Assembly (NCBI GenBank): GCA_964016885.1
Contig: CAXHJY010000351.1
Coordinates: 8,994-72,993, forward strand
Direction: 5' to 3'
DNA length: 64,000 bases
DNA from: Eledone cirrhosa
Taxonomy: Eukaryota
The stretch's first letter is position 1. Each line of letters starts with the position of its first letter. The notes beneath the pieces were generated by a model, which had not been told where the DNA came from, ran no database searches, and worked only from the letters and a program-made list of their open reading frames with translations. A program made the position numbers and the translations under genes. Shown here one piece after another: positions 5,892-48,101 of this stretch.

Positions 5892-7825
5892 TTAGAGATG
5901 TGTAAGTTTCGGTATATAGGAATAGGTGTCATGGTGAAGTTCATGAGCGCTGGGTATACCACATGGCCCCAGCTGTGACGTATGTGTCAGCTGGTAGTGT
6001 ATGCCACCACTAGCGTCCTCTAGTAGCGAACCTGTAATGTACGGGGAACTAGGTCCGGTCACGTGATGCAACATATGTGAGTTCATGTAGGCGTGGGGGG
6101 AGCCCACGTTCGGCGGCTGAGGCGATGATGATGATGAGGTTTGATGATGATGATGGTGATGATGTGGATGAGGTTGTTGTTGTTGTTGTTGATGGTGTTG
6201 CTGTTGTTGTTGATGGTGCTGCTGCTGATGATGTTGCTGCTGCTGCTGTTGATGGTGATGCTGTTGTTGTTGCTGATGGTGGTGATGTTGTGCATGGTGA
6301 TGCTGCTGCTGCTGCTGCTGCTGTTGTTGTTGATGATGTTGTTGCTGCTGATGATGATGATGTTGTTGTCGTTGTTGTTGCTGTTGTTGCTGTTGTTGGT
6401 GAGGCACGTACGTTGTGAGCGGCGGCGGGTGGTGCGGAGGCGGCGGGTGCGGCTGGGAGTGGTGGTGTGGAGGCATCGACCCTCCTCCCGCCGCCGCAGC
6501 CACGTGGTGAGCGACTGAGGCGCCGGCGGCGGAGTGGTGCTGGCTGATCGGATGGTGGGACGAGTGAGAAGGTGGTGGAGGCGGCGGCGCGAGCACTGCT
6601 GCTGCTGCTGTCGATGCTGCTGTTACCTGGTGATGGGCTTCCGTCGCTGGCGGCGACATCGAACACGCCGCCGTTCCAAGCATTTGTAGACTCCCCGCCG
6701 CCAGGCAGTTCCCGTTTGTCATGGCAACACCACCACTGTTACTGTTAGGGTTATTATTATCATTATCAATGTCATCAGCATCCTTGATGTCATCACCATC
6801 ATCATCGTCGTCACCACCACCGCCACCTACAGGCGTATTGTGGTTGTGACTGTTGTTGTTGTTGTTGTGTGTGGAGAGGAGGAGAGAGGAGTCTTTCATG
6901 TGTTGCGATGACGACGGCGTTGACGTCGTCGACGACGACGTCGCAGACGACGCCGCCGCCGCCAACGCCAACGCCGCTGACGACGATGATGATGATGTGG
7001 AGGAGGAGGAGGCGGCGGATGCTGATGAAGATGAGGACGACGATGATGATGATGAAGAAGAGGAGGAGGAGGAAGAGGAGGAGGATGAGGAGGAGGCCGA
7101 AGAGGAGGAAATGGTGGTAGTTATGGTGGTGATGGTCGGCGTGACAGAACAGTAAAGACCCGGTGTGCCGCTTCGCACCCCACCACCACCACCACCACCA
7201 CCAACACCACCATTACCGCCACCGCCACCACCACCACCACCACCACCGCTCATGCCAGGTGGCGGCGGCCCCAGTCCTCCTAGATTGTGTGTAGCGGGAC
7301 CTTGTGTCGTCGTCATCATCATTAAACCACCCCCTCTCGGTGAAGGGGTCGCCGATTGAGGGCGGTAGGGAGATATCGCCGAACCGCCAATCACAACTTC
7401 GTCTGAGGATAAGTTATTACCACCTCCTCCACCACCACCAACACCAACACCAACACCAACACCTCCACCGTTCATTTTTCCTAGTCGCTCCAGACTTTTC
7501 ATTGAGCTCTGACTGTCCGAATCAGAGTTGATATTTGTGAGACAATCAGAAGATTTGCCACTACCACTAGCGCTGCCATTACTGCTATTACTGCTGTTAT
7601 TGCTACACTTGTCCATATTAACCTTCATTTTTTTTTCCTTCTTGAACTTCATCCGACGATTTTGAAACCAGATTTTAATCTGACGTTCGGAGAGGTTCAG
7701 CAGAGCTGCCATCTCAATTCTCCGAGGCCTACAAAGGTACTGGTTGAAATGAAACTCTTTTTCCAATTCGACAAGTTGAGCACTCGTGTAAGCAGTTCTG
7801 GCTCGTTTTGCTGGCTGTTCACATT
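5892..7825 (-). CDS. Hox3: Hox paralogue group 3 transcription factor, terminal (homeobox) coding exon
   Basis: Pyrimidine tract plus CAG acceptor (AG at 7827-7826, phase 1), then [63 protein letters not shown] (homeodomain 7811-7632). PG3 signature residues RARTAYT and LCRPRR. Open to TAA at 5892 and ends PKLTHL like vertebrate HOX3 proteins. The ORF-track start at 7766 is an internal Leu. Confidence 0.96.
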
Positions 7826-7884
7826 CTGTTGAAGAAGAAGAAGAAAAAATGAAAATGAAATTATTATTACTTTCTTGTACAAAA

Positions 7885-8360
7885 TAATCATGCTTTCTGA
7901 TTTAGGCACAATGCCAACACTTTTTGGGGGAGGGAAAGTCGATTAATTCAACCCCAGTACACGACTGGCACTTTATTTTATCGACCCCGTAAGGATGAAA
8001 GGCAAAGTTAACCTCGGCGGGAATTGAACGCAGATCATAAAGGGCCGTAACTCTATGCTTCAAAGCATGGTGTCTGACTCTCTACTGATACTACCAATCC
8101 ACCTCTCTTTGTACAAAATAATAATTGTTTCTACATTTGGCACAAGGCCAGCAATTATCTCAGTATATTACTGGTACTTTATTTTATCGACCCCGTAAGG
8201 ATGAAAAGCAAAGTTAACCTCGGCGGGTTTTGAACTCAGACCATAAAGGGCCGTAACTAATAATGGTTTCTGATTTCAGGCACAATACCAACAATTTTTT
8301 GGGATGGGCAAAGTCCATTAAATCGATCCCAGTACATTACTGGTGCTGTATTTTATCTAT
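7885..8360 (-). mobile_element. Three tandem SINE copies about 60 bp upstream of the Hox3 acceptor
   Basis: Three successive matches to the SINE consensus in the same orientation. Confidence 0.85.
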
Positions 8361-9048
8361 TTACACACACACACATACATATATATTTACATATATGTAC
8401 ATGTATAATCACATATATGTACATATACATGTATATATATAAGTATATATAACATTTACATATATATATATACATGTACATATATACCTTCAATTATATC
8501 TATACACACATACGTGTAGATATATACACATACATATACATACATGTACATACATGTACTTATACATACATACATATTTGTACATATACACAGACAGACA
8601 CACACACACACACACATATATACACATATATAACATATCCACACACACACAGATACACAGAATCCAATATAAATCTTTTATTCAGTTCCGTTGAACAGAA
8701 CACCACTGATATTATCAAATCAATAAAACATGCACCCCTCCCGTCTCACACCCCACCACCACCACCACCACCACCACCACCACCACCACCACCACCACAA
8801 CTACCACCACCACTACCACCACCACCACCACCACCACCACCGCTGCCATTGATCCGACCAGTTGTTCTAGCATTTCTTGTAAAGAGCTATCATTGTAATT
8901 TACCAAACATTGGCTCTTATCTCTCAGTTATCTCCCCTGCAAATGACTCGTTATCGATTGGCAACAGAATAGAAATTCTTATTAACATCCTGACAACATC
9001 TCTATCAACTCATTAGATAGAGGAAAAGGAAGGGGCTTTGTTATACAC

Positions 9049-9153
<105 letters not shown>

Positions 9154-9195
9154 TATATATATAATTGGTAGATGGATATGCGCACACACTTACGC

Positions 9196-9235
<40 letters not shown>

Positions 9236-9237
<2 letters not shown>

Positions 9238-9697
9238 GATATTAACAAATGGAAACTATATTTATAAAACCATATTTATTTCATTATACATATTTCAAGG
9301 ACACTAAGTTAAATTATGGTGTGCTTTCATCAGATAAAATATAATATAGATCAGTTTTATAAATAAATATTGACATATTAAAAATAAAAATATCCAATAC
9401 TAATAATAATATAATTAAACAACTCCAGTATCCGGGAGCTTCCAACAGTAATGGTTGCATTTTTTAAGGGTATGTCAATATTTATTTATAAAACTGATCT
9501 ATATTATATTTTATCTGAGGAAAGCACACCATAATTTAACTTGGTGTCCTTGAAATATGTATAATGAAATAAATACGGTTTTATAAATATAGTTTCCATT
9601 TGTTAATATCGTATTTTTACTCCAAATATTTGTTGAGTGCTTTATATCAGTTATAAAAATATTTGCTTGTTGTATCCCAACAATTTAAATAGAACTT
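9236..9697. mobile_element. Penelope-like inverted pseudo-LTR pair, family A (other copies about 11970-12200, 13062-13380, 29398-29815, 54677-54835)
   Basis: About 140-bp arms in inverted orientation, each with a hammerhead motif; one arm extends about 85 nt further; flanked by (TA)n. Confidence 0.7.
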
Positions 9698-9698
9698 C

Positions 9699-9764
<66 letters not shown>

Positions 9765-9804
9765 TGTGTGTGTGTGAATTAAAAGGGACAAGGTGCTGTG
9801 TGGT

Positions 9805-9951
9805 TACTAATAAATGTTGTTTAGTAATGTAAGAGAAACACATCAGACAATTCCCCTCATCAGTTGTCTGCTGTGGGCCGCTGATGTTTCGATTCACAGC
9901 AGACAACTGAAGAGGGGAATTGTCTGATGTTGTGTTTCTCTTACATTTCTA

Positions 9952-9957
<6 letters not shown>
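9805..9957. mobile_element. Inverted-repeat element with hammerhead half-motifs (related sequence near 28745-28900)
   Basis: About 65-bp inverted arms, CTGATGA/CTGAAGA-GGGGAATT in each arm, CGAAACATC in the spacer (minus strand); (TA)n flanks. Confidence 0.5.
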
Positions 9958-10017
<60 letters not shown>

Positions 10018-10102
10018 CTGTTGGGTTATATCCGTAGTAGATGATGATCCGACTAAGGTGAAACAATTGTTCTCGGAAATGGTGAATTAACTGTTGTGGA
10101 AT

Positions 10103-10145
<43 letters not shown>

Positions 10146-10146
10146 G

Positions 10147-10194
<48 letters not shown>

Positions 10195-11005
10195 TACTAA
10201 CGTCCGAATTGTTAAGACCCTCTTCCTGCTATTTCAAGCGTTATATATATGTATGTATGTATATATAGTGGGTGTGTATACATTTTTTGGCGAACTATGT
10301 ATGTGTGTTTAATTACTTTTTACTCATCATGTATAAATATACAAAGTAATCATCGAAGGCTGCCCTGGGTGATATCGCACACACCGACAGCAAAAAAAAA
10401 AAGCAATAATATAAGAAAAAAAGGAAGAAAAACAAAAAATAAAAAAATAAAAAAATAAAAAGATGAAGAAAGAAGGTAAGAAGAAGAAGAAAAAGAACAA
10501 CAACATCAATAACTAGTAAAAAAACAATATAAAATTCTACGTTAAAAAATGGTGGAATATTGGATAATTTCCAATTGTTTCTATTGGACTGATTCCTGAC
10601 ATGGATTGGCACCATTCCACCAATTCTATAGACTATTACAGTTATTATTGTAGCTGTAGACGTTGTTGCTGTTGCTTGATTATATAGCACTTGCAGTCTA
10701 GGCATGACCCCAGTCCAATGACGAATACTAGGATAAAGATAAATATATCATCATCAATATTGTATATATCTACATATATATATATATATACACACATATA
10801 TGACACTTTACAGTGTGGGCTGGGCCTCTTTTGCCGTGTCACTAACATGACCACTACACAGTGTATATATATATACTGAAGTAAAAGTTAAGTGGAAATA
10901 TCCAAGAGTAAGAGCACTCAGTCCATAAGACGAGTTTCATGACAGGCCGAATGAATTGGGGCCCAGAACCCAAAGAAACTTGAGTACCTGTTTATATCAG
11001 TGTTG

Positions 11006-11057
<52 letters not shown>

Positions 11058-11769
11058 ATATATATACACACACACATATAAACAAACATATAAATATATA
11101 TAAACACATTTTTTACACTATCCCACCTTGGTGTATATATATATATATGGATACACACACACATATATGTGTATGTTATTTGTTTAAACATGGCCTGGGA
11201 CGATAATTGGCGAAAATTACCGAAGTTACGCATACACATACATCCGTACATGAACGGAGTATAACTGCCTCTAGACACACGTCAACGTCCATACGCACGT
11301 ACACAGAAACACACCATACACACACACACACACACCATACACACACACACACGCGGAGCGTAGAAATAAATTAATTAATAAAGACAAAGATACAATGAAT
11401 AGATTATGCACGTTCACCATGTTCCAACAACTCGACAGTTCATTGGTTGATAATATCGCAGCCAATCAGAACGATAGTTTAGAAATAAATATTGCAAAGA
11501 GTAGAATAAGGCGTGGCTTCCCTCAGCCTGGCTGATGGTTGCTAGATTTCTTGAAGTGATACGGCGACGGCTAAGGGACATAACTCTAGTACGACTAAAA
11601 GTTCAATATACAGTCATTGTGTGTGTGTACTTATATACACCAAGACGGGATACCATAAAACATTTGTTTACTCTTTTACCTGTTTCAGCCATCCGGCTGA
11701 GGCCATGCTGGGGCACCGTTTATATATATATTTATATATAATCATGTTAACAATTCAATTCACTGATAA

Positions 11770-11820
<51 letters not shown>

Positions 11821-11835
11821 ATTTCTATACCTTTC

Positions 11836-11879
<44 letters not shown>

Positions 11880-11894
11880 ATTTCTATACCTTTC

Positions 11895-11944
<50 letters not shown>

Positions 11945-12204
11945 TATATATAACATATATATATATATACTATATTTATATAACCATATTTATTCTATTA
12001 TATATATTTCAAGGGTACCAAAACTTTGGTACGCTCTCATCAGATAAAATACAAAGTTTGTTTTATAAATATTGACATATCCAGTGTAAAACAAACTTTG
12101 TATTTTATCTTGATGAGTGCGTACCAAAGTTATGGTACCCTTGAAATATATATAATAGAATAAATATAGTTTTATAAATATAGTTTCCATTTATTTAATA
12201 TCAT

Positions 12205-12247
<43 letters not shown>

Positions 12248-12274
12248 CGATTCTGTTATTTCTGTTTACCTTTT

Positions 12275-12360
<86 letters not shown>

Positions 12361-12652
12361 TTGTAGCAAGGTTCCTTGGATGCGTCCATAAGCGGTATGC
12401 CAGTTGAGGAACTCTATGCTGATTCGGAGTAGAGTATAATAATACGGAAAACGAAGAATCAGTGAGATTATAGTGAAATATAGAAATGGCTTCTACAGAT
12501 TTCCTTCGAATGAAACAGTTCTAGTCCTGTAGAAGCCATTTCTATATTTAATATTCATAACCTGCTATGTATTGAGTACCTTACTTACTGTGGTTACCTC
12601 CGATTGAACCCGGGATACACACACACACACACACACACAGACACAGACACAG

Positions 12653-12692
<40 letters not shown>

Positions 12693-12818
12693 TAATATTA
12701 TCTATTATATATATACATATATTAATATTATATTATATTATATTATACGGGGTCGATAAAATAAAGTACTAGTAATGTACTGGGTAATTGCTGGCCTTGT
12801 GCCAAAAGTAGAAACAAT

Positions 12819-12903
<85 letters not shown>

Positions 12904-12971
12904 GAAGGAGGCTGTAAGGGAAATAAAGGATTAGAAAAGAAACAACGGAGAAAGAGGGAGTGAGATGAGAG

Positions 12972-13015
<44 letters not shown>

Positions 13016-13419
13016 GGAGAGAGCTGAGGGAATGATATATATATATATATGTAGAGGTTATATTTAATTTGTTGGGATACAACAAGCTAAATATTTTTAT
13101 AACTGATATAAAGCACTCAACAAATTATTGGAGTAAATATACAATATATTAACAAATGGAAACTATATTTATAAAACCATATTTATTTCATTATACATGT
13201 TTCAAGGGCCACTTGAATGGTTGCATTTTTTAAGGGTATGTCAATATTTATTTATAAAACTAACCTATATTATATTTTATCTGATGAAAGCGCGCCATAG
13301 TTTGCTCTGGTGGCCCTTGAAATATGTTTAATGAAATAAATATGGTTTTATAAATATAGTTTCCATTTGTTAATATATTGTATATATATATAAAGAGGGA
13401 GCGAGAGCAAGAGCGAGCG

Positions 13420-13494
<75 letters not shown>

Positions 13495-13960
13495 GAAAAA
13501 GTGGGTGAAATAAATAAAAGAACGAACAGAAAGAATGAAGAAAAAAAAATACAACCAAAAAATAAAAGAAACCAAAAGAAAAACGAACAAAACAAAGGAA
13601 AGAAAGGAAGAAAAAAGTGTGAAATGAATGTCATAAAATTAAGTCCTAGAAGTTGTTATTGTTGGTGTTATTGTTGTTGTTGTAAATGTGAAGGTGGGTG
13701 ACCTTATTAATAGACTATCAAATAACGATAACTCATACAAAACTGACCGTTCGGTGTTAAACTGACCTCACTTTACAACTGTAGCTACTTTACTTGAGAT
13801 TTTGGGGAAGGGTTCCTTTTCAGGGATTCTGAAGGTCAAATGTTGGTGTTATTTAAAGTTAGTTTAGTTTAGAAAATGGGCCTGGATGTGGTAGGTGGGA
13901 TGGTTATGGTGGGGTATAGGCCGTCCTGATGGTGTAGGGCTATTGTGTGGGTGGTAGTTA

Positions 13961-14026
<66 letters not shown>

Positions 14027-15019
14027 TCGGGTTCAATCGGGGGGTAATCAAAGTAAGTGAGGTATTCAATACATTAGTAGAGTATAAACATCAAATTTAA
14101 TATAGAAATTACTTCTACATGACTAGAACTGTTTCCTGATGATTTCTTTTGAATGAAGCAGTTTTAGCCCTGTAGAAGCCATTTCTATAATAAACATGAT
14201 ATATATAGTACATATATAAACATTGTTCACACACACGTGTGTGTGTGTATATATATATATGTGTGTGTGTGTATGTGTATATATATATATCAAACACACA
14301 CATATATACACACATCTACATATGCACACATATATATACACACATCTACATATACACACATGAATACACCTGCAATTTCTGAAATATGAACACATATCTA
14401 AATGAAATTTGGTGGAGATAAACTGACCCAAGACCCATCATGTGTGTGTGTATGTGTGTGTACAAGTACCTGTATACATGGATGTGTCAGTGTTTGTGTC
14501 TATGTATGTGTGTGTGTGTGCATTCGAGTGTCTTTACCTCGACACCACTTGAACAGGTGGTAACATTTGTTTATATACTGCACCACTATATTTCTATGTG
14601 TGAAGACCAGTGCCAAAACAATCTCACTGAATAACAAGCTAGTATCTGTGTTAGAAAGAACATGTAATAATATAATTGTTTCTACTTTTGGCACAAGGCC
14701 AGCAATTATACCAGTGTATTACTGGTACTTTATTTTATCGACACCGTAAGGATGAAAAGCAAAGTTAACCTCGGCGGGATTTGAACTCAGACCGTAAAGG
14801 ACCATAACTCTAAGCTGCAAACATGGTGTCCGACCCTCTAAGCGATACTACCAATCCACCGCCCTTACATCTAATAATACAATGCTGCTTTAAATACACG
14901 CGTTTAAAACATGCTACCATGGTAAACTGGATGTTAAGACTCTCTTGCTGCTATTTCAAGCCTTAAACTAATATATTCTTTCCATATACAGTAATTTTTG
15001 TGTTATTATTTCTGTTTAC

Positions 15020-15090
<71 letters not shown>

Positions 15091-15170
15091 CCTCCACATC
15101 CACCAAGCGTGAACTTAATATAACTGCGTAAAAATTGCCTCCTGTGTTTTGTGTCTTTCATTTATTAACT

Positions 15171-15996
15171 ACTAGCAGATGTACCCGGCGTTGCTCAGGA
15201 AATGAATGACAGCCTGTTTGTCCGTATAGAGAGAAATGTAATTGTAAAAAACAGTTTAACAAAATGGGTGTACAGTGACATGATTGAGTGAAATAAACGG
15301 CAACATGGGGTAGCTTGAGTTAATTGATGTGAATGATTTCAGGTCCGGCCTTGCTGTAGTATGTATGAGTAAGGGGATAAAGATGGAATAGACGCACCGT
15401 ATGTCCTTCAGTAAACTAAACCCTATGTGTAAGATGGCGCTGCCACTACCACGTTGACCATCCACTGGACATAGAAATATCATTCCTTGGAGCAACTATC
15501 CCCCCCCCCCCCCCCCTCAACGCCTGAATACACGATGAGAATGAGCAAAAAGGTTAAGTTAATCAAAACGAAGACACTGTTGCCGAGAATGCTGGTGCAC
15601 GTTTTTCAGAGGCCATAGCGAGTCAAGCTGCTAGGTTAGGGGGCCATAGCGAGTCAAACTGCTAGGTTAGGGGGCCATAGCGAGTCAAACTGCTAGGTTA
15701 GGGGGCCATAGCGAGTCAAGCTGCTAGGTTAGGGGGCCATAGCGAGTCAAACTGCTAGGTTAGGGGGCCATAGCGAGTCAAACTGCTAGGTTAGGGGGCC
15801 ATAGCGAGTCAAACTGCTAGGTTAGGGGGCCATAGCGAGTCAAACTGCTAGGTTAGGGGGCCATAGCGAGTCAAGCATATAAACAACATGTGTGCCAAAT
15901 TTGGTTGAAATCGGCCTAGTACTTCAAAAGTTAAAAGGAGCCTAGTATTTGTATACAGACAGACAGACAGACACACACAGACCGACTTGCTTTTAT
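15171..15996 (+). mobile_element. Non-autonomous Helentron/HINE (Lep1/DINE-like) element
   Basis: Starts ACTAGCAGATGTACCCGGCGTTGCTCAGG and ends TGTGCCAAATTTGGTTGAAATCGG..(CAGA)n..CTTTTATATAT; has an internal tandem array. Confidence 0.65.
15611..15877. repeat. 31-bp minisatellite, about 8.5 copies
   Basis: Unit GGCCATAGCGAGTCAARCTGCTAGGTTAGGG starting at 15611, 15642, 15673 and so on. Confidence 0.95.
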
Positions 15997-16411
15997 ATAT
16001 ATATATATATAGGAACGAGTAGGACCCCGACGACTGAGCTCAAGCCGTTTCGACTCAGCCGTCGGGGTCCTACTCGTTCCTATTACCCACTCTACTACCC
16101 TAAGTATTGAGTACTTTGGTGCGTTATGGTCCACCTGGTTCCTGACAACATTTCCTTCGTTATATATATATATATAGTTAAAAGAATAGAGGTGTAACAC
16201 ACAAGTTATTATATATTGGTAAACGGAATAGAAAATGCTGACAAATTGTTCACAGTTGAAAAATGGTTTAATTAGGAATAAAAGAGTATTAGTGATTGTA
16301 TGGGTTAGTATTCAGTTGTGGTTTTAAGTTTTTAAGTTTTTACCGGTTGCGCATTTCTAAATGCCTTTCAAAAATAATTTTGAGATAGAGTGTCCGTGCT
16401 GTTTGCTCTGA

Positions 16412-16510
<99 letters not shown>

Positions 16511-16555
16511 CCAGCAGTCCAACATTACATAAACTAATATGCATCCACATGTGTG

Positions 16556-16602
<47 letters not shown>

Positions 16603-16925
16603 GTGTATATGTAATAGTGCATACATACAAGTTCATTAAATCAGGAAATGAAGCGAGAATCATAGAAAATGTTGATGTTAACAACTGACCAACAATCTCT
16701 ACAGTATTATATACAGTATCATATATACAGTATCATATATATATATATATATATACGACTATATAGTGTTATATGTCAGCACCTTGCTGTGATATCTTGG
16801 CACAGAGCCAGGCCATTCCAGAACCGACATTATACGTTCTGTTTATCAAGATGACCAATGCTGGAACACTGCCAAGTCTTCATTTCTAATGACAGAAATA
16901 CCATGACAGCACTTGTGTGTGTGTG

Positions 16926-17043
<118 letters not shown>

Positions 17044-17199
17044 GAAATCTTAGTTAAAATTACTAAGATCAAATTTAAATGACTATTTCATGCATATTCA
17101 ATAAAGTTAATCTGGAGGAACTATATATATACTGTATATATTTATACACACACACACACAAATATATATACACAAACACACACACACCCTCTCTCTCTC

Positions 17200-17311
<112 letters not shown>

Positions 17312-17709
17312 GAGCTCTGTTGAAGTTTTTCAGTCAATCACAAGTATGGAGATTTTGCATATATAAGTAACATTCATATATATATATACAGATATATATA
17401 TATATATAGAGAGAGAGAGGGGGGGGGGGTAGATAGATAGAGAGAGTGAGAGTGAGAGAGTGAAAGAGAGAGAGCGTGAGAGAGAGGGAGAGATAGAGAG
17501 AGAGAGTGAAAGAGAGAGAGAGAGTGAAATAGAGAGAGCGTGAGAGAGAGTGAAAGAGAGAGAGAGTGAAAGAGAGAGTGATAGAGAGAGAGATATAGAC
17601 ATAAATGACATGAAAAACATCTCTAAACCTGACCTCTATTAAGACCCACTTTAGACCCAAATATATTAAATTTATGTATCTAGGTCATGCACAGAAAAAT
17701 ACACACACT

Positions 17710-17744
<35 letters not shown>

Positions 17745-17926
17745 GCGTCAAACACACACACACAGACACACAAACAGTCACACATACTCACACACAAACA
17801 CATACACAAACAAACCAACACATACATAGAGAGGTTGTAACAAGAAAACGCCATCATATATTCCGTGTTAAAAAATGTAGCCATATATATTCCAAGCTAT
17901 TTCAATACCAAACAAACACTTTTCGT

Positions 17927-17959
<33 letters not shown>

Positions 17960-18154
17960 CTCTTCCCCCCTCTCTCTCTCTCTCCCTCTCTTATTCTGGC
18001 CATAATAAATGTCAAAGACAATGATTGGAACTGGTGGATGTATGGCAGTAGAAATCTACTCGTATATTCATATACATATATAATACATGCACACATACAC
18101 ATACACTCACACATGCATATATATATAAGACACACACGCACACATTGTATATAT

Positions 18155-18193
<39 letters not shown>

Positions 18194-18353
18194 CAATGTA
18201 TACACAGAGTTGTTTTGGTAAAATACAGGAGTAAGCAGGAGAAAGCTCTCTACATTCGTAATGTGTAGTTACCATAGAGATTCAGTAAAAGAACAACATT
18301 AAAAAAAAAATCCTGATATTACATAAATGGTCTAATCATTATAATTATTTCAA

Positions 18354-18584
<231 letters not shown>

Positions 18585-18709
18585 TTATATATATACACAT
18601 ACATATATATATATATATTTCTCTCTCTCTCTCTCTATATATATATACTTGGACAGCCAGCTTCCTGATGATTTCTCACGAATGAAGCAGTTCTAGTCCT
18701 GTAGAAGCT

Positions 18710-18775
<66 letters not shown>

Positions 18776-19052
18776 AAAGTTAAACAGAAATAAGAAGAAC
18801 AAAAGGCACAGTACATGAAATAAATATATTAGTTTAACGCTTGAAATAGCAGGAAGAGAGTCTTAACGTGTCGGACATTTGTTCTTCATCAGAAGTTAGA
18901 ATGAGAAATAAAAGATGAGAAGAAGAAGGAACAGTCCTTCAGGTTTTCTAAGGTCTTTAATAAGAATTTGAGAGGTTGGGCCGCCAACCAGGTCTCTGTG
19001 ATACCCTTAAAGCAGAAACATTTCAGCACCCCCTCGTATATACATATATATG

Positions 19053-19111
<59 letters not shown>

Positions 19112-19299
19112 CTACTCCAGAGAAGACCCGCCTTACCTAAATATATAGTAAAACCTACTCCAGCTAGTAGGCATCTCTAACAAAATACACCCCGTCCCAC
19201 CACCCCCACCCCATCCACACCACCCCGTTCTATGTAAAGTTATGTTGGTACCACAACATCCAGGCCGAAACAAATGAGATCGTGTAGGTGTCACGACAA

Positions 19300-19532
19300 A
19301 AAAACACACAGTCCACGCTGTAATGTGGCCGTGTAGGCAACACGGTAAAAACCTCCCAGACCCACACTGTAAATGTGGTTGGTGTTAGGAAGGGCATCCA
19401 ACTGTAGAAAACCTGCCAGACAGTCCTATGCGAGCAAGACAATCACTCTTGCCTCAAGTGGGACTACCCCCGTCCAAACCCATGCAAGCGTGGAACACGG
19501 ACGTTAAACGTTGATGATGATGATGATGATGA
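19300..19532 (+). mobile_element. SINE 3' portion with (GAT)n tail
   Basis: GGTGTTAGGAAGGGCATCCA..CGGACGTTAAACGTTGATGATGAT. Confidence 0.6.
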
Positions 19533-19577
19533 TATATATATATATATAAATATTTTAATTTCATGAATCTCACTATT

Positions 19578-19611
<34 letters not shown>

Positions 19612-19629
19612 CATACGCACACACATATA

Positions 19630-19686
<57 letters not shown>

Positions 19687-20181
19687 TCTTTGGTGCTTCT
19701 CAATGAAACGTGACATTTCATTTGGTACAAAAAACCCACTGTCATCACCAGACGGCGTTAGTGTGCTCACACAGGGGAAAAAAAACACTAAAATAGCTAA
19801 ACCCATTTAACTGGGCCGTCTCCCAACACTACACCACCAAACGAGGCTGTCACCACTCCAACCCACCACCCTAAACTAGGCCCTCACGCCACCACCAACA
19901 CCACTCGTCCTCCCTCATATCTAATTATGCTAATGTATTCATGTGTAAAATAAAATATATCTGTTTGACCTTTGTTGCCTGTCAGCAGGATTACTTCCGG
20001 TTATTGTAGTGCAAGCACCCCTACACCCCCGCTGACACCGCCATCTTCATCACCATCACTATCATCAACATTATAATCTTCACCATCCTTATGATGATGA
20101 TGATGATCATCATCATCATCATCATAAACCTCACCAATATGATACTCACCTCCAAATTTTAAGACCACCACCACCACCACG

Positions 20182-20216
<35 letters not shown>

Positions 20217-20517
20217 CATCACCATCATCCCTATCATCTGCCTCAACAATTTATTCCACCGCCACCACTACCACCACCACCACCACCACCGCAATATCAT
20301 CCCCCACTGCCACTGTTGTTATTAACGTCATCATCATCATCATCACCACCATCTTTACCACCCCTCTCTTACTCTCTACACCGCTACCATCACTCTTGCC
20401 GTCACCCTCAATACCATCACTATCATCATTAGTATTGTTACCCTCCTACCGCCATCCCTAGTGCCACCACCACATATATTACTACTATGCCACCACCACC
20501 ACCACCACTACAACAAA

Positions 20518-20570
<53 letters not shown>

Positions 20571-20819
20571 ATCAGATTATATTACCATTCTATTATCTAT
20601 AAATAAACATTCCTGTAATGTCCTCTCGATTAGGATTACCACCGTCTTCAACGTGGAGGAATCCATCCTTCCGGTGTAGGCCACCACACAGGCGAATTCT
20701 TCCTCCTCCCCCTCCTCAGAGAGATAGGTAGAGAGAGAGAGGGGGGAGAGAGAGGAAAGACAAAAAATGAGAAAGAGAGAGAGAGAGAATGATTGAGGGA
20801 GAAGGAATGAAAGAGCAGG

Positions 20820-20854
<35 letters not shown>

Positions 20855-21010
20855 TGAGAGGGAGAGAAGGAGAGTTAAGAAGTAGTTTATAGATATGTAT
20901 ACAAACATCCATTCAAATATTAAAACACAGCCGAAGGAAGGGGAGATAAGCGAGGCTGGTAAATACAGCAATGGCGAAGATAGATTGTGTCTTCTACTAC
21001 AACATGAAGT

Positions 21011-21028
21011 ATTAATGACCTCTGAACC
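21011..21028 (-). promoter_or_regulatory. Candidate nuclear-receptor DR1 element overlapping a homeodomain site
   Basis: TGACCT-C-TGAACC (minus GGTTCA-G-AGGTCA) at 21016-21028, preceded by ATTAAT; motif match only. Confidence 0.3.
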
Positions 21029-21212
21029 TATATAACCTCTGCACTGTTCCACTGACCTGGCACAAATTAACACCGTTTCTTTAGTGGCTCTAACGATTGT
21101 AATACATCATTTAGGGGACTTCTTTAAGAACATATAGCTGAGTAAAAGTAATACGCAGAGTAGCTTTATCTATCTAGGTATATGAACGTTTGCTCGTGTA
21201 AAAACATACACT

Positions 21213-21319
<107 letters not shown>

Positions 21320-21706
21320 GGGTAAGAGGAGGAAGGAAGCAAATGGGAAGATTTAAAGAGAAAGTAAGGATTCTAGAGAGATAGAGGGCAGAAGATGAGT
21401 CTGTTGTGTTTGTGAATTTTCGGTGATTATATATATATATATATATAAATTTATCCCGGGTTCAATGGAGGGTAACCACAGTAAGTAAGGTACTCAATAC
21501 ATAGCAGAGTATAAATATCTAGAACTGTTTCATTCAGGAGAAATCATCAGGAAGCCGGCTGTCCAAGTAATATGGTGGTATTTCGAGGTCGAGTTTGGTC
21601 AGCATGGTCTCTTGGTGATGGTTAAGAGGGGTACAAAGAATGCTTAAAGATAAGTTTATCCCGGGTTCAATCGGGGGTAATCACATATCATGTTTAATAT
21701 AGAAAT

Positions 21707-21757
21707 GACTTCTACAGGACTAGAACTGTTTCATTCAAAATAAATCATCAGGAAATC
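21707..21757 (-). ncRNA. Type-I hammerhead ribozyme motif (family C)
   Basis: GATTTC-CTGATGA-(weak stem II)-GAA-ACAG ttctagtc CTGT-A^GAAGTC. Related copies at 4635-4686 (-, perfect ATTC/GAAT stem II but GAGAC) and 18659-18709 (+, GAAGC). Confidence 0.7.
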
Positions 21758-22033
21758 CGGCGACTGACTTTGAAAGATTGTTGTATTTATATGTTTTCTG
21801 TTGGTTCGGGGCAGGTGGTGATTTGGGATATGGGTGGAGGTCATTGGCCAAGGGATTTTATATAAAATAATACAATAATATGGAAAATCAAACAAATGAA
21901 ACCAAACAGCAATGGCGCCTATGTATGGGATCTCAAGAAGAACCCAGAACTCCAGACCACATGATAACGTAGTGAGCTTTGTAATATTTTAGCTATGCCC
22001 ACCTGTTCCGCCATCCGAATATATATATATATA

Positions 22034-22075
<42 letters not shown>

Positions 22076-22094
22076 GGTGTGTGTGTGTGTGTGT

Positions 22095-22212
22095 CTGATG
22101 GAGAACTAGCGTCCGAAACGTCAAGACCCTCTTCCTGTTATTTCAAACGTTAACCTAATATATTCCTTCCATATACTCTACCGATTGTGTTGTTATTTCT
22201 GTTTACCTTTTA
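22095..22212 (+). mobile_element. Penelope-like pseudo-LTR, family B (copies about 10198-10243, 14925-15025, 18772-18895 -, 43703-43830 -, 51410-51490, 63498-63580 -)
   Basis: Hammerhead followed by AAGACCCTCTTCCTGCTATTTCAAGCGTTAAACTAATATATT..TTATTTCTGTTTACCTTTTA, usually running into (CA)n. Confidence 0.68.
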
Positions 22213-22230
22213 CACACACACACACACATA

Positions 22231-22366
<136 letters not shown>

Positions 22367-22673
22367 CGTGCGTCTTGTAAAGAGAAAGATAGATAAATAA
22401 ATAGATAGATAGATAAATAGATTGGTAGGTAGATAGATAGATAGATTGGTAGATAGGGAGATAGAGAGGGTGAGGGTTGTAACACCTATGAATAACAAAC
22501 TTTCGAAAGCAGAAATGTCCCAAATTCTCGAACCGCCCAAATTGTTCTATTTTAAAGAAACATTTTTTGATGACACTTTGTGACATTCAACAGAATAGAT
22601 GCACCATGGGAAAACGTTCCTCTTTACTCTTCCACACATGCCCGTTTATATTTAACCCTCTTACAGACATCCA

Positions 22674-22726
<53 letters not shown>

Positions 22727-22729
22727 GTG

Positions 22730-23310
22730 GGGCTATGTAGAACGACTATTGCCGTGGGTGGGACCAATCCGGTTGACCACCGAGTCCATTGTCATGCTCA
22801 AACCCCCACCCACCTTCAAAAACGAAGGAGAGGCGGTTTTCCTTTGTGTGATAGCTATGGCGAAAGACGTTGTATGGTGGACAAGGTTGAAAGGGCTGAG
22901 GTCAGACACCTTTCTCTCCGGCCAACAACTGATTCTTTTTTTCAAATACCACTTTGGAAGAAGAATCAGGATGGAGAGAGAGGTGCTGTACCCCAGCAAG
23001 TTTTATGAAAGGTGGGTGAAAGTGGCGAGAATGGCCCGAGTGAATGGGCCTTCTCTCTATATCAGCCTGTAGGTTGAGGAAAAGGAGGAGGAGAGGAAAG
23101 GAGTACAAGCTCTTCGTACTCCTGGAGATGAGGGTTGCACATTTTTTTCGGGGGTCTGTGTTACCCATATAAACTGTCTCCCTCTATTGGGGAAAATCGA
23201 CTAACTTTTAAATTCCATCTGTGATAACATTTTACACGTTTTTATTGTATGTAAACTTCCCCCTTTGTATTTGTCCCCTTCTTTTGTGCCCCTGTGGCTA
23301 ATAAAGAAAT
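22730..23310 (+). mobile_element. L1/Tx1-like LINE 3' end (ORF2 tail, 3' UTR, AATAAA); shorter second copy about 23360-23610
   Basis: ..AKDVVWWTRLKG..FFKYHFGRRIRMERE..ERWVKVARMARVNG is duplicated; ends CTGTGGCTAATAAAGAAA; embedded in (TCTA)n. Similar 3' tails at about 3520-3645 and 5215-5230. Clade call is by resemblance. Confidence 0.55.
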
Positions 23311-23311
23311 A

Positions 23312-23359
<48 letters not shown>

Positions 23360-24801
23360 GTTAAGTACCACTTCAGAAGGAAGGTGAGAGTGGAGAGAGA
23401 GGTGCTACGCTCCAGTAAATACGCTGAAAGGTGGGTGGATGTGGCGAAAATGGCCCGAGTGAATGGGCCTTTTCTGTTTATAAACCTGTAGGTTGAAGAA
23501 GACGGGAACACCTACAAAACGTGTTCCTGGTGTTGAGGGTTTTTCTATCCACGGGGTGTAAAACAACCCTGCAGTAAGGTTCCCCCTATTGGGGATTTCG
23601 ATTGTTTTATTTTATATATAGTTTATTGTTATTCATTATTGTTAAAGATTTTATGTAAAACGCTATCTATCTATCCACGTGTATTTGTGGGTATTGTGAT
23701 TAACCTACTAAGCATGTACTGAATCAAGGATTCATATTGTGTATAGAATCCGTATAATAATTGTTATTACGGATGTGTGTTTACTTCAAAGTTTCGCCAA
23801 TGTCTTTGTTTTATAGATATTATATTGATACGCCAATAAATTCTGTTATACTGTAGGAAACAGTCATTATCAATAACACAGACAGACACACATACACACA
23901 GACATACATATATATAGTTCAAGGTGATAACACAGAGGTACAAAAAGTCTTATTAGTTCCATGCTATATATGGAAAAGGAGAAAGAAAGATCGACGTGTC
24001 GGATTTAAGTCCTTCTTCAGGAGTACAAAATAGAGACAGGATTACAAAAGTGAAATAGAAATAAAGGAATAAAGGAGGCCCTCCCAACAATATATATATA
24101 TATATTTATATGAAAACTTGAAGATTTAAACTTGAAATATTTTTCACTAAAATCACACTCTTGAAGAAGCATTCTGAGCGCTTTTCCTCACATTTACATA
24201 AGTTTTTTACCACATATAAACACGTTAAACCAATTAACGACCCTGTGTGTTAACGGGTAAGCATATTTGACTATGGCATTCTTTAGTTACACACACATAC
24301 ACACAGGTTTCAACACATATACAATCATAGGAACAGTCCCTCACATCCGAACAGTCATACAAACCTACACACGTACACGCCATTCCCAAAACAAGACCTG
24401 TCAATGCAAAAAAGATTTATTAAAAATCTGAAATTAGCTTTATAATATTTTGGTATGAGATTTACTTAATTATGCTTCAATTAAGAGTAATTAGATGGAT
24501 ATTACGGCTTTATAGGGACATAGAGGGGTAGAAGTGGTGTTGGATTATATATGGGTTGTTGTATATTGGTGTTAAGATGTAAATGGTGTATTTAGGGCAC
24601 TTATGGCGCTTCTGTTTAAGTTACTGGTATCGTTTATAATGTAGTTACAACCTCAGATTTAGGTTTTGTGTTTTGTTTAGGATACTGTTACAAATATTGA
24701 TGTTGATCTTGTTGTTGATATTTAATTCTAGAGCAACCACGTTTCGGTTAGAACTATGACCAAATGTGTTACAGCCGAAACCGTCTTATCGTCTCCCCTA
24801 C

Positions 24802-24889
<88 letters not shown>

Positions 24890-25237
24890 CACACATGTTT
24901 GTATGTATGTATATTACATATGATTATATAATGAAGAAATTGCTTCTACAGGATGAGAACTATTTCATTCTACAGGACATGAAGCAGCTCTAGTCATGTA
25001 GAAGCAATCTCTTTATTATTACTAGTGTTATAAATCACCGAAACGCTGGGTGATTCGAAATTTGAAAACGTGAGTGACCCAAAGACAGAAAATAACTGTA
25101 ACAACAATAGATCGTTATGTATAATAGCTTAAATATCGGGTAAAATACCCCTGGAAACGGAAGAAAGTGGCCAGTGTATTATAATGGACGTAGGGGGTGA
25201 TTGATTATGTTAACATACAAAGAAATGGTTCACTTAC

Positions 25238-25279
25238 GTGGATGCTGTCGAGGTAATACGTCCCTAGAGGAATTCAGAC
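25238..25279 (-). CDS. Hox3: Candidate 42-nt phase 1-1 microexon of Hox3 (linker upstream of the homeodomain), encoding LNSSRDVLPRQHP
   Basis: Minus strand: long U-rich tract ...ttttcttatttttctttcttcatcatcAG|GTCTGAATTC...CAGCATCCAC|GTAAGTG. Length is divisible by 3, and only the phase-1 frame (the one the homeobox exon needs) lacks a stop. Confidence 0.65.
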
Positions 25280-25939
25280 CTGATGATGAAGAAAGAAAAA
25301 TAAGAAAATAAATACAATATAACAAATAAAAGGATTCATTCATAAATATGACCGAATAAGGGTTACGAAATTATACATATATAATAGACATATATAAACA
25401 CTGAAAGACATTACTGACATATAGACATATATACATATGATTTCCAATTTAGGCAATGGGGGGGGGGGGGGGGGTACAAGTCAATTACATCATCTCCAGT
25501 ACATGACTGCTACTTCATTTTATCGATCTCTGAAGGATGAAGGGCAAAGTTGATCTGGACCTAGAGGTCTTAGTAGTTCACAAGCGAGGAAGAACTCAAT
25601 ACATATAACAAAGTAAATATATATAATTATTTATTCGGTTTGTTTAGAAGTAAACACCCTCATAAAAGACGGCTGTTTACTTATTGGTAAAGGGTCGGAC
25701 GCTATGCTTTGTAGCATAGAGTTACGGCCCTTTATGGTCTGAGTTCAAATCCCACCAACGTTAACTTTGCCTTTCATCCTTATGGGGTCAATAAAATAAA
25801 GTACCAGTAATACACTGGGATAATTCCTGGCCTTGTGCAATTATTATAATATTATTATTTTCTCACAAATATATTTAGGTATCCACTACGTTAAGAGCGA
25901 AAACAAATTTTGTTTTTTATTTATACATTTCCTTACACT

Positions 25940-26706
25940 ATATCTATCCCTTATATTGCTACCATAGAAGTTTGGACTACATCTATCCCTTATATTGCTA
26001 CCATAGAAGTTTGGACTACATCTATCCCTTATATTGCTACCATAGAAGTTTGGACTACATCTATCCCTTATATTGCTACCATAGAAGTTTGCACTACATC
26101 TATCCCTTATATTGCTACCATAGAAGTTTGGACTACATCTATCCCTTATATTGCTACCATAGAAGTTTGGACTACATCTATCCCTTATATTGCTACCATA
26201 GAAGTTTGGACTACATCTATCCCTTATATTGCTACCATAGAAGTTTGCACTACATCTATCCCTTATATTGCTACCATAGAAGTTTGGACTACATCTATCC
26301 CTTATATTGCTACCATAGAAGTTTGGACTACATCTATCCCTTATATTGCTACCATAGAAGTTTGGACTACATCTATCCCTTATATTGCTACCATAGAAGT
26401 TTGCACTACATCTATCCCTTATATTGCTACCATAGAAGTTTGCACTACATCTATCCCTTATATTGCTACCATAGAAGTTTGGACTACATCTATCCCTTAT
26501 ATTGCTACCATAGAAGTTTGGACTACATCTATCCCTTATATTGCTACCATAGAAGTTTGGACTACATCTATCCCTTATATTGCTACCATAGAAGTTTGGA
26601 CTACATCTATCCCTTATATTGCTACCATAGAAGTTTGGACTACATCTATCCCTTATATTGCTACCATAGAAGTTTGGACTACATCTATCCCTTATATTGC
26701 TACCAT
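25940..26706. repeat. 39-bp minisatellite, about 19.5 near-identical copies
   Basis: Unit ACATCTATCCCTTATATTGCTACCATAGAAGTTTG(G/C)ACT. Confidence 0.97.
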
Positions 26707-27255
26707 ACAAGTTCCTGGGTTCTAATCCTACATTTGTCCCTGTAAATATCATAGTTATTTCTCTAGAGATACTAATATATTTAATACTGTATATCATTTC
26801 TACACATATGCTGAACATTTATATAATTATATCCTAGAAATATATTATCAAATTATCATTCTTATCTTTAATAACTTCCACATGTCACTAGTCAACATAA
26901 ACTATAGGGTTCCTTTTCCGCAAACAATTAATTTGTCAAAACACTATTTTCCAGTTTGTTGATTGTTTAAATACCCAGTAATCCTGGTACATATGACCTA
27001 CCAATACTGAGCTCCAAAAATTCAATAGTTTAATATTAGTGTCGCCATTATTGTCGACACTAGTGCAATATTATGAAAGACATATTTCAATTATTTAGCC
27101 CGTCGTTGCCGTTTATCAGAAAGGCAGGCTTTATTGAGCAACCCTATAATTAGATTTGAGCAGCCTTATGACTAGGTGGCGAATTGGCAGAGTCGTTAGA
27201 ACGTCGGATAGAATATTTTATGGTATTAGTTGCGGCTCTCTGCCCTCTGAACTCA

Positions 27256-27540
27256 GAGCTGTACGGGAGCCTCCCAAAAGTCAGCTCAAGAGTAACACAG
27301 AGGAGACTGAGGTTAGCTGGACATGCTCACCGACATCCAGAGTTGACACTCCACTCAGTGCTCCTGTGGCAGCCGCTACATGGACACACTGGAAGCGGAA
27401 GACCAAGGTTAATGTATGTTGATGCCCTAAGGACAGACACTGGTCTCATGGAGACGCAGGACATGGCAGCGATAACGAGGGACAGAGACCGCTGGAGAGA
27501 ACTCGTCCATGGATCTCGAGAATCTTACCCGCCCTAGACA
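27256..27540 (+). mobile_element. RTE-like LINE 3' fragment
   Basis: ELYGSLPKVSSRVTQRRLRLAGHAHRH..LLWQP..GRPRLMYVDAL..DRDRWRELV, typical post-RT region. Confidence 0.8.
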
Positions 27541-28251
27541 TAGACAAGGTCGATAAAAAAAGTAGCAGTCTAGTCCTGGGCTGGATTCTTCTCCTATATC
27601 TCTTTCTCATTTCCTCTCTCTCACTTTCTATCTTTCTCCGGAAGAAATTTGCTGTACTCAGGCCTGGAGTGGGATGGGCTCCGCCAAACTTAAAAGGGCC
27701 AAGAAACACCGTTTGTCAATACGGTGCCCCTACGACTCTATAAGGAGTTACGGGACCATACTTGATTAAATATATTCGTCAAATGAGGACCATATCGTCT
27801 TTTATACAAACAACTTTACTCGTGTCACAATTATCCAATGTATCTCTTCATAAAATAATGAACGAGGCGATTTGAAGAATGGGGTGCTATTTCTAGCGTT
27901 CTAAAATACTCATTAGCTTGAGATGGTTGATACTTTGGACAAGATTCGAAAAACTTCCGGTTTTACAAGAGGGTGGTGCGGGGTGGCGGGGGTGGGTGGG
28001 TGGGGGGGGGGTGTACCATTTTGATATCATTGTAATTCTCTACCACAATACCAGCTGGTTTACATTTGTACAGACCGAGAGAAAGTACATTTATGACTGG
28101 CGGATGTACTTGACATATTCACTACATATGAATATGTATGTATGTACGTGGAACTATGTATGTATGTATATATATATATATGTATATATATATATACATA
28201 TATGTATGTACGTGTATATATATATATATATATATACATATATGTATGTAC

Positions 28252-28298
<47 letters not shown>

Positions 28299-28307
28299 TG
28301 TATGTAC

Positions 28308-28390
<83 letters not shown>

Positions 28391-43940: not shown

Positions 43941-44334
43941 GGAAAAAGTATGACTCCGACGGCAGTGCTCAAGCCGTTTCGACGGCTATTTCTGGCCAGA
44001 AATACCGGTCGAAACGGCTTGTGCTCTGCCGTCGGGGTCTTGAACATTTTCCCATATATATATATATATATTTATATGCCTCAGCATGGTCTCAGCTGGA
44101 TGGCAGGTAAAAGAGTAAAAGATATATATATATATACATATGGAAATTTGTAATAAATTGAAGTGAAATCGAACAGGTGCGTGTGTTTTTATTGGCAGCA
44201 ATATATATTCTGGTAGTTAATTTATCCATCTCTTTTTGTCGAATCATTAAAAAGCAACAGTAAACATAAACACATACACACACGCACTCTCATATATATA
44301 CACGCACAGATACATGTACACACACACATATATG

Positions 44335-44368
<34 letters not shown>

Positions 44369-44403
44369 TATATACATACAGTATATATATATATATATAT
44401 ACA

Positions 44404-44474
<71 letters not shown>

Positions 44475-44476
44475 CA

Positions 44477-44508
<32 letters not shown>

Positions 44509-44958
44509 TTCCACTCACTCACTCACTCTCCGTTTCTCCCCTTCTCACTTCCTCCCGCTTGGCTTGTAGTGGGTCTCTTCTTGCTCACATCTCACACACA
44601 TCAACACGGTCTGTACCTCTCTCGCTCATGAAATCCACCCAGCTTATGCTGACCGGACAACCATGTTGCTTGTTTATTTTCCTATCTTCGGTTTGCTTTT
44701 ATCCGTCTATGTTGTTTACTTGTCCCCCTCGCCTTACGCGAATTCTGGTCCCAATAACTTCTTTAGTTATTGCTCGCACCAACCTGAGGTATCTGATTTT
44801 TAATGCGATCAAATACCAATGATGGTTGGAAAATCACTGACGAAGGACTATTTTTATCATATGTAACCCATTTGCAAACCACGCAGTATTCTTCTTTCTT
44901 CTCATGTTTTTATATATATATATATATAGTATATATATATATATAGTATATATATATA

Positions 44959-45018
<60 letters not shown>

Positions 45019-45048
45019 TATATATACAGTATATATATATATATAGTG

Positions 45049-45113
<65 letters not shown>

Positions 45114-45132
45114 TATAGATATATATATATAC

Positions 45133-45181
<49 letters not shown>

Positions 45182-45245
45182 TATATATATATATACTATA
45201 TATATATATATATACTATATATATATATACTATTATATATATACA

Positions 45246-45322
<77 letters not shown>

Positions 45323-45608
45323 GGAAGGTCATATTTGCGTAATATTGCCAGAATTAATAACAGAACACACTCACTGTTTGGTTGGTTTTCGCTTCTCGCT
45401 GTCTTTTATATATATATATCTGCAATCTAACTTACTCGGTCCTCAATGTTGCCATTGACTGACCGGCGGTCAAAAATAATACAGATACAATATAGACACA
45501 AACACATATATATAGTTTACATAATTTACATAAATCTTTCGTTGCACATCTGCAACATCGTCAGTGGTGTTATATTCATTACATTATATTCATTATATAT
45601 ATATAGTG

Positions 45609-45734
<126 letters not shown>

Positions 45735-45889
45735 CGCAGACAGGGAAGTCTATGATGTATACCCCCGATACTACACTATCACACAGTCTTACAGATATCC
45801 TCTTATAAATCTATTCCTTGTCAGATATAGTACATTATATTGTTTACTATATATATATCTATATCTATATATATATATATATATATATA

Positions 45890-46499: not shown

Positions 46500-46899
<400 letters not shown>

Positions 46900-48059: not shown

Positions 48060-48101
<42 letters not shown>

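What the first reader, a model, noticed from the sequence alone, without database searches (positions are those of the whole stretch)
25238..25279. Hidden 42-nt linker microexon of Hox3, 17.4 kb upstream of the homeobox exon
Seen: strong pyrimidine tract with CAG, GTAAGT donor, length 42, and stops in both frames except the phase-1 frame required by the homeobox exon. The joined protein reads [26 protein letters not shown]. Established: Drosophila Ubx and pb use alternatively spliced microexons between hexapeptide and homeodomain. Inference: linker-length isoforms of this Hox3 could tune Pbx/Exd cooperation. Too short to appear in the ORF track.
Basis: partly seen in the sequence, partly recalled or inferred. 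Interest (0 to 1): 0.75.

Follow-up and report, generated by a model that had tools for sequence, protein, structure and literature searches.

The report
Extra linker exon in octopus Hox3
The body-patterning gene Hox3 of this octopus-like animal has a 42-base middle exon, found spliced in wherever the junction was covered in related species and absent from the snail and bivalve versions compared; it likely just lengthens a flexible spacer, and no form lacking it was seen.

Summary
The exon is real. Window 25279..25238 (minus strand) has a pyrimidine tract with CAG, a GTAAGT donor, and only the phase-1 frame open. The hexapeptide exon is not in the window; it lies on contig C8, between the Hox1-like and Hox5-like homeoboxes. 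I laid contigs of 7 of 24 listed runs, all from relatives and guessed to be RNA. Five reached a junction, and all 5 include the exon (5 organism codes, 5 studies). One contig has exactly 42 nt between the flanking exons. The three variable sites are synonymous. None skips the exon, but contigs hide minor isoforms and no RNA of this species was listed. Snail and bivalve Hox3 splice exon 1 straight to the homeobox exon, so the exon is probably a cephalopod-lineage gain; squid and Nautilus were not testable. The 35-residue linker (21 without the exon) lies inside the 16-70 range of lophotrochozoan Hox3. Extra linker exons are known in fly Ubx, sea-star Xlox and cuttlefish xLox. Modest interest.

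The parts
25238..25279 (-). 42-nt phase 1-1 coding exon (middle coding exon) of Hox3; 13 whole codons LNSSRDVLPRQHP plus two junction codons
   Evidence: spliced on both sides in relatives' contigs
25280..25400 (-). 3' splice site: CAG, pyrimidine tract (0.86 pyrimidine at -25..-4) and a 119-nt AG-free zone; no UGC within 50 nt, no UCUC/CUCU within 50 nt, no CUAAY within 150 nt
25232..25237 (-). 5' splice site GTAAGT
7826..25237 (-). Intron between the small exon and the homeobox exon, 17,412 nt, phase 1
   Evidence: removed in contigs of X1, X10, X15
5892..7825 (-). Homeobox exon, coding part to the stop codon (Hox3 homeodomain, long low-complexity tail, C-terminal PKLTHL); 3' UTR not mapped
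25280..64000 (-). Downstream part of the first linker intron; it runs off the contig. The hexapeptide exon lies on G000:C8 (L002:1469-2453, donor after C8:4,416,489). Intron at least about 71 kb if C378 fills the nearer assembly gap (inferred)

Best explanation
This is a frame-preserving 42-base coding exon of Hox3 that is included in the spliced contigs of related species, was likely gained in the cephalopod lineage inside the one old linker intron, and likely acts as a fixed, always-included extension of the flexible spacer between the Pbx-binding YPWM motif and the homeodomain. Shown: splice signals and frame in this genome; both junctions and exact 42-nt spacing in relatives; direct exon 1-to-homeobox splicing in snails and bivalves; linker of 35 residues with the exon and 21 without. 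Inferred: splicing in this species itself, near-constitutive inclusion, lineage-specific gain, and the spacer role (from fly Antp and Ubx work).
For: 5 of 5 informative runs (of 7 laid; 5 organism codes, 5 studies) include the exon; 6 of 6 junction observations. The X1 contig (1717 nt, same length and depth in both calls) has the homeobox exon at record 573-915 and L002:1467-1679 at 956-1168, which leaves 42 nt once the 2 shared letters are assigned. Three variable sites, compared by eye, are all synonymous; 31 of 117 possible changes are synonymous, naive p about 0.02. Full +1..+6 donor; no UGC, UCUC or CUAAY. Exon-1 read-through ORFs of the Mytilus, Haliotis, Ruditapes/Mercenaria and Biomphalaria clusters end where their full proteins continue directly with the homeobox exon. 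Lophotrochozoan Hox3 linkers span 16-70 residues, so 35 is ordinary.
Against: All evidence of inclusion is from assembled contigs, which drop rare variants and give no inclusion level; the runs are only guessed to be RNA, tissue unknown, and none is from this species. The exon is symmetric, skipping keeps the frame and gives a 21-residue linker like annelid Hox3 (20-21). The AG-free zone is long (119 nt; 3% of 2858 AG gaps in the region reach 100), a mark of regulated exons in flies. Lingula Hox3 has two RefSeq isoforms differing by 7 residues at this site, which weakens both 'constitutive' and 'gain'. No full-length squid, cuttlefish or Nautilus Hox3 was retrieved, so the gain is undated. Only three sites support the synonymous bias.
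Confidence: 0.6

Rival explanations
1. The exon is a regulated cassette: mostly included, but skipped in some tissues or stages, giving 35- and 21-residue linker isoforms that would differ in DNA affinity and Pbx cooperation, as for fly Ubx and Antp.
For: Symmetric phase 1-1; the skipped form is open and has an annelid-like linker length. Long AG-free zone. Precedents: Ubx microexons (PMC4186791), Antp long and short linkers (PMC6602345), two cuttlefish xLox isoforms differing by 28 residues upstream of the homeodomain (PMC4186843), Lingula Hox3 X1/X2.
Against: 0 of 5 informative runs show a skipping contig. No UGC, UCUC or CUAAY motif, and a full GTAAGT donor.
Confidence: 0.28
2. The exon is not a cephalopod gain but descends from an old optional linker exon of Hox3, or of Hox3 and Xlox together, lost or overlooked in snails and bivalves.
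For: Lingula X1 carries 7 extra residues at the same site, with a slight NSS-D likeness. Sea-star Xlox has an extra linker exon, and its authors suggest the feature may be old (PMC3710244).
Against: No mollusc Hox3 member listed shows an extra linker piece within a species (not all members were listed). The likeness to Lingula is 4 residues, and whether its 7 residues are a separate exon was not tested. No 84-nt phase-1 candidate was found in this genome's Xlox intron.
Confidence: 0.1
3. The segment is a chance match to splice signals, or a dead exon no longer used in this species.
For: A looser filter gives 2 candidates against 1 on the control strand. No RNA of this species was laid.
Against: Relatives splice this sequence at both predicted boundaries with 1-3 differences per 30 nt, all synonymous; both splice sites are intact here.
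Confidence: 0.02

Closest known systems
Sea-star Xlox (PmLox) extra linker exon (PMC3710244) and Sepia officinalis xLox isoforms (PMC4186843); passages read
   Same: An extra piece between hexapeptide and homeodomain of a related homeobox gene; a separate exon in the sea star, missing in close comparators.
   Different: Different gene (Xlox, not Hox3); 23 and 28 residues against 14 here; cuttlefish xLox has both isoforms, whereas only the included form was seen here.
Drosophila Ubx microexons mI, mII and b element (PMC4186791; passages read)
   Same: Small coding segments beside the homeodomain, in the linker after the YPWM motif (linker placement as described in PMC6602345).
   Different: Ubx inclusion is stage- and tissue-specific with tested functional differences; no skipping was seen here. 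No sequence relationship was tested or is implied.
Drosophila Antp long and short linker isoforms (PMC6602345; passages read)
   Same: Linker length between YPWM and homeodomain is set by splicing and changes DNA affinity and activation versus repression.
   Different: Antp uses an alternative splice site adding 4 residues, not a separate exon 17 kb away.
Hox3 of gastropods, bivalves, annelids and brachiopods
   Same: Homeodomain 53-58 of 60 identical, same motif after YPWM, same C-terminal motif in most, intron in the same linker region.
   Different: The snail and bivalve clusters checked have one linker intron and no middle exon; bivalves lengthen the linker with glutamine-rich sequence inside exon 1 instead.

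Membership tests
Hox3 (paralogy group 3) | Homeodomain closest to named Hox3 proteins | tested here: met
   53-58 of 60 identical to eight invertebrate Hox3-named proteins, 28-43 of 60 to the seven C8 homeodomains; Pfam Homeodomain E 5e-22. No tree was built.
Hox3 (paralogy group 3) | YPWM hexapeptide upstream of the homeodomain in the same transcript | tested here: met
   Hexapeptide exon on C8, joined in one contig of X1
Hox3 (paralogy group 3) | Position in the Hox cluster between Hox1/2 and Hox4/5 | tested here: inconclusive
   Exon 1 lies between the Hox1-like and Hox5-like homeoboxes (names recalled from diagnostic residues); the homeobox contig is unplaced, with two 200-N gaps in the right interval
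Ubx-type alternatively spliced linker microexon | Lies between YPWM and homeodomain | tested here: met
Ubx-type alternatively spliced linker microexon | Frame kept when skipped | tested here: met
   42 nt, phase 1-1; both forms open to the same stop
Ubx-type alternatively spliced linker microexon | Differential inclusion by tissue or stage | tested here: inconclusive
   0 of 5 informative runs skip; contigs hide minor forms, tissues unknown
Ubx-type alternatively spliced linker microexon | Isoforms differ in DNA or Exd/Pbx binding | not testable with these tools
   needs binding assays
Microexon (size class) | Usually 3-30 nt (PMC7392893, start of abstract in listing) | tested here: not met
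   42 nt; it fits only the wider limit of 51 nt (recalled)
Neural eMIC/SRRM4-dependent microexon | Long AG exclusion zone (10.1101/2021.02.24.432780) | tested here: met
   119 nt; 3% of 2858 AG gaps in the region reach 100 nt
Neural eMIC/SRRM4-dependent microexon | UGC near the 3' splice site, UCUC-rich tract, CUAAY branch point | tested here: not met
   none found within 50, 50 and 150 nt
Neural eMIC/SRRM4-dependent microexon | Neuron-enriched inclusion | not testable with these tools
   no raw reads or tissue labels available

The most novel reading that the evidence does not exclude
Cephalopods gained a conserved cassette exon that lets one Hox3 gene switch, by tissue or stage, between an ancestral 21-residue linker and a new 35-residue linker, tuning Hox3-Pbx cooperation in arms, funnel and nervous system. 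With cuttlefish xLox, Lingula Hox3 and sea-star Xlox, this would make the Hox3/Xlox linker intron a repeated site of regulatory exon gain.
Probability: 0.2. Interest if true: 0.6.

Novelty: new member of a known kind. Interest (0 to 1): 0.3.

Why it matters
Practically, it completes the Hox3 gene model of this genome, which is split over two contigs and whose middle exon an ORF-based reading misses. It also gives an exact junction to count in existing cephalopod RNA-seq. Evolutionarily, it is a dateable exon gain in the linker that tunes Hox activity in flies. It would matter more if skipping were found; as a fixed 14-residue insert in a linker that already varies from 16 to 70 residues, it is a modest finding.

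Tried and rejected
No RNA holder of this species was listed; this says nothing about expression. Runs X5 and X6 (organism B) gave no junction: X5 did not reach 7825 and nothing of X6 was laid; they are left out of the 5 of 5 count. The hexapeptide exon is not in the window, and the contig ends at the window's end. Four protein searches returned no full-length cephalopod Hox3; P0025 has an identical homeodomain but covers only the homeobox exon. A second candidate exon (57 nt, 51144-51200) and one on C8 (45 nt) are rejected for the main isoform because X1 has exactly 42 nt between the flanking exons. No unique overlap of C378 with the C8 stretches was found, only short repeat-like matches, so the gap it fills is not fixed. 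No Rfam match in the window. No 84-nt candidate in this genome's Xlox intron (filter-dependent, weak). Literature: the exon's peptide motifs in full text, 0 papers; Hox3 + alternatively spliced + linker + mollusc, 0; listings showed no title on this exon. Supplements of PMC4186843 and PMC5103448 could not be read and may hold cuttlefish or pygmy-squid Hox3 sequences that include this peptide; the one supplement of PMC10509229 had none of the motifs. Two papers were not held; PMC9068888 had no Hox passage. No structure or complex was predicted.

Full report
Observation. On the minus strand, window 25279..25238 is 42 nt, preceded by a pyrimidine tract ending in CAG and followed by GTAAGT. Frames 0 and 1 hold stops; the phase-1 frame reads LNSSRDVLPRQHP. 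The homeobox exon begins at 7825 in phase 1 and runs open to 5892. The intron between them is 17,412 nt. In the 56 kb upstream of the homeobox exon a simple filter finds this exon as the only candidate with a full GT[AG]AGT donor (control strand 0), and one of 2 with a looser donor (control 1). The exon with flanks occurs once in the genome.

The gene. The homeodomain is 53-58 of 60 identical to eight invertebrate proteins named Hox3 and 28-43 of 60 to the seven homeodomains on contig C8. The window is the end of a 73-kb contig, C378, and has no hexapeptide exon. A degenerate pattern found one match in the 3.0-Gb genome, C8:4,416,521-4,416,549: a 985-nt coding exon with the YPWM motif, ending at a phase-1 GTGAGT donor. 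It lies between a Hox1-like homeobox at 4.11 Mb and a Hox5-like one at 4.99 Mb on the same strand (names recalled from diagnostic residues). Two 200-N gaps, at 4,230,393 and 4,383,559, lie where the rest of Hox3 should be. C378 probably fills one of them, making the first intron at least about 71 kb (inference). The animal is inferred to be an octopod.

Splicing evidence. The run search listed 24 runs, none on record as RNA. I laid 7 of them, all contigs guessed to be RNA, X1 twice. On the homeobox exon, 3 of 4 runs (X1, X10, X15) have a contig that stops at 7825, and each continues into the last 30 nt of the small exon; X5 did not reach the site. On the hexapeptide exon, 3 of 4 runs (X1, X9, X14) stop at the donor and continue into the first part of the small exon; nothing of X6 was laid. 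The X1 contig has the same length (1717) and depth in both calls; it carries the homeobox exon at 573-915 and exon 1 from 956, of which two letters are shared with the donor, leaving exactly 42 nt. So 5 of 5 informative runs, from 5 organism codes and 5 studies, include the exon and none skips it. Contigs that break exactly at AG and GT boundaries are most simply spliced RNA. These organisms are 88-90% identical in the flanking exons and align without gaps across a Ser/Asn-rich stretch that P0025 lacks, so they are probably other octopods (inference). By eye, the loose ends differ from the exon at 1-3 of 30 letters, at three sites in all, each synonymous (one Arg, two Ser codons). Of 117 possible single changes 31 are synonymous, so three of three has a naive probability near 0.02. 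Limits: contigs drop rare variants, tissues are unknown, and no RNA of this species was seen.

Comparison. With the exon the linker from YPWM to the homeodomain is 35 residues; without it 21, also in frame. Lophotrochozoan Hox3 linkers in hand range from 16-18 (snails, Nucula), 20-24 (Chaetopterus, Owenia, brachiopods, phoronid) and 52 (Urechis) to 32-70 (other bivalves); the vertebrate Hox3-type linkers are 29-34 (the automatic list also held a few non-Hox3 linkers from fused gene models, which I left out). In the Mytilus, Haliotis, Ruditapes/Mercenaria and Biomphalaria clusters, exon-1 read-through ORFs end where the full proteins continue directly with the homeobox exon: one linker intron, no middle exon. 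The simplest history is a symmetric exon gained inside that intron on the cephalopod line. It cannot be dated here, because four protein searches gave no full-length cephalopod Hox3. Against a simple gain, Lingula Hox3 has RefSeq isoforms X1 and X2 differing by 7 residues at this site.

Regulated or fixed? For regulation: symmetry, an annelid-like length when skipped, and a 119-nt AG-free zone, reached by 3% of 2858 AG gaps in the region. Against: no UGC, UCUC or CUAAY motif (features from 10.1101/2021.02.24.432780, passages read), a full GTAAGT donor, and no skipping contig. I put near-constitutive inclusion with a cephalopod gain at 0.6, a regulated cassette at 0.28, an old optional exon at 0.1.

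How it works. Shown: the exon adds 14 residues to the linker. From established work: the YPWM motif contacts Pbx/Exd, and linker length changes DNA affinity and activation versus repression for Antp and Ubx (PMC6602345, passages read; PMC4186791, passages read; PMC4901127, passages read). Inferred: the peptide is part of a flexible tether, kept by selection on the protein, and sets one fixed spacing rather than a switch. Hox3 is expressed in funnel, arm pillars and stellate ganglia of Octopus vulgaris embryos (PMC10509229, passages read), which names the tissues to test.

Known kinds and novelty. Extra linker pieces are in print for Ubx, sea-star Xlox (PMC3710244, passages read) and cuttlefish xLox, which has both isoforms (PMC4186843, passages read). 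The pb precedent is recalled only. At 42 nt the exon exceeds the usual 3-30 nt microexon size (PMC7392893, listing only). I found no paper on this exon, but deposited cephalopod Hox3 cDNAs, and two supplements that I could not read, may well contain the peptide. Earlier scan notes held nothing on this gene.

Verdict. Observation confirmed; interpretation partly supported. A real, conserved middle exon of octopod Hox3, a new member of a known kind, with no evidence yet of isoforms. Interest 0.3.

Noticed in passing
G000:C378 (whole window) and C8:4,230,393 / 4,383,559: Hox3 is split by the assembly: exon 1 on C8, the other two coding exons on the small contig C378, which probably belongs in one of two 200-N gaps of the Hox cluster.
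   Followed up: partly
window 5892-7630 and L002:1469-2453: Large runs of Gln, His, Ser and Gly make this Hox3 about 986 residues, against roughly 320-500 for the named lophotrochozoan Hox3 proteins.
   Followed up: no
window 7639-7760: The homeobox core shows 0 (X1) to 2 (X10, X15) listed differences in relatives, against 25 listed for X1 in 7521-7638. It may be an overlapping element, but the runs were picked by shared exact words, which biases this.
   Followed up: no
window 25937-26713: 39-bp tandem repeat, about 20 copies, 98% matches, 660 nt upstream of the small exon's acceptor.
   Followed up: no
window 40833-41957 (-): 374-residue frame with a weak reverse-transcriptase match (Pfam RVT_1, E 7.8e-6, below the cut-off), likely a LINE remnant in the first intron.
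   Followed up: partly
P0083 and P0091 (Lingula anatina Hox3): RefSeq isoforms X1 and X2 differ by 7 residues in the linker at the same site; exon structure not checked.
   Followed up: partly
L042-L061 (G000:C3:233,544,264-233,679,403): Xlox-like gene with a 135-kb phase-1 linker intron; no 84-nt candidate matching the cuttlefish long isoform passed my filter.
   Followed up: partly
window 51144-51200 (-): Weaker 57-nt exon-like candidate, open in phase 1; not in the X1 contig.
   Followed up: partly
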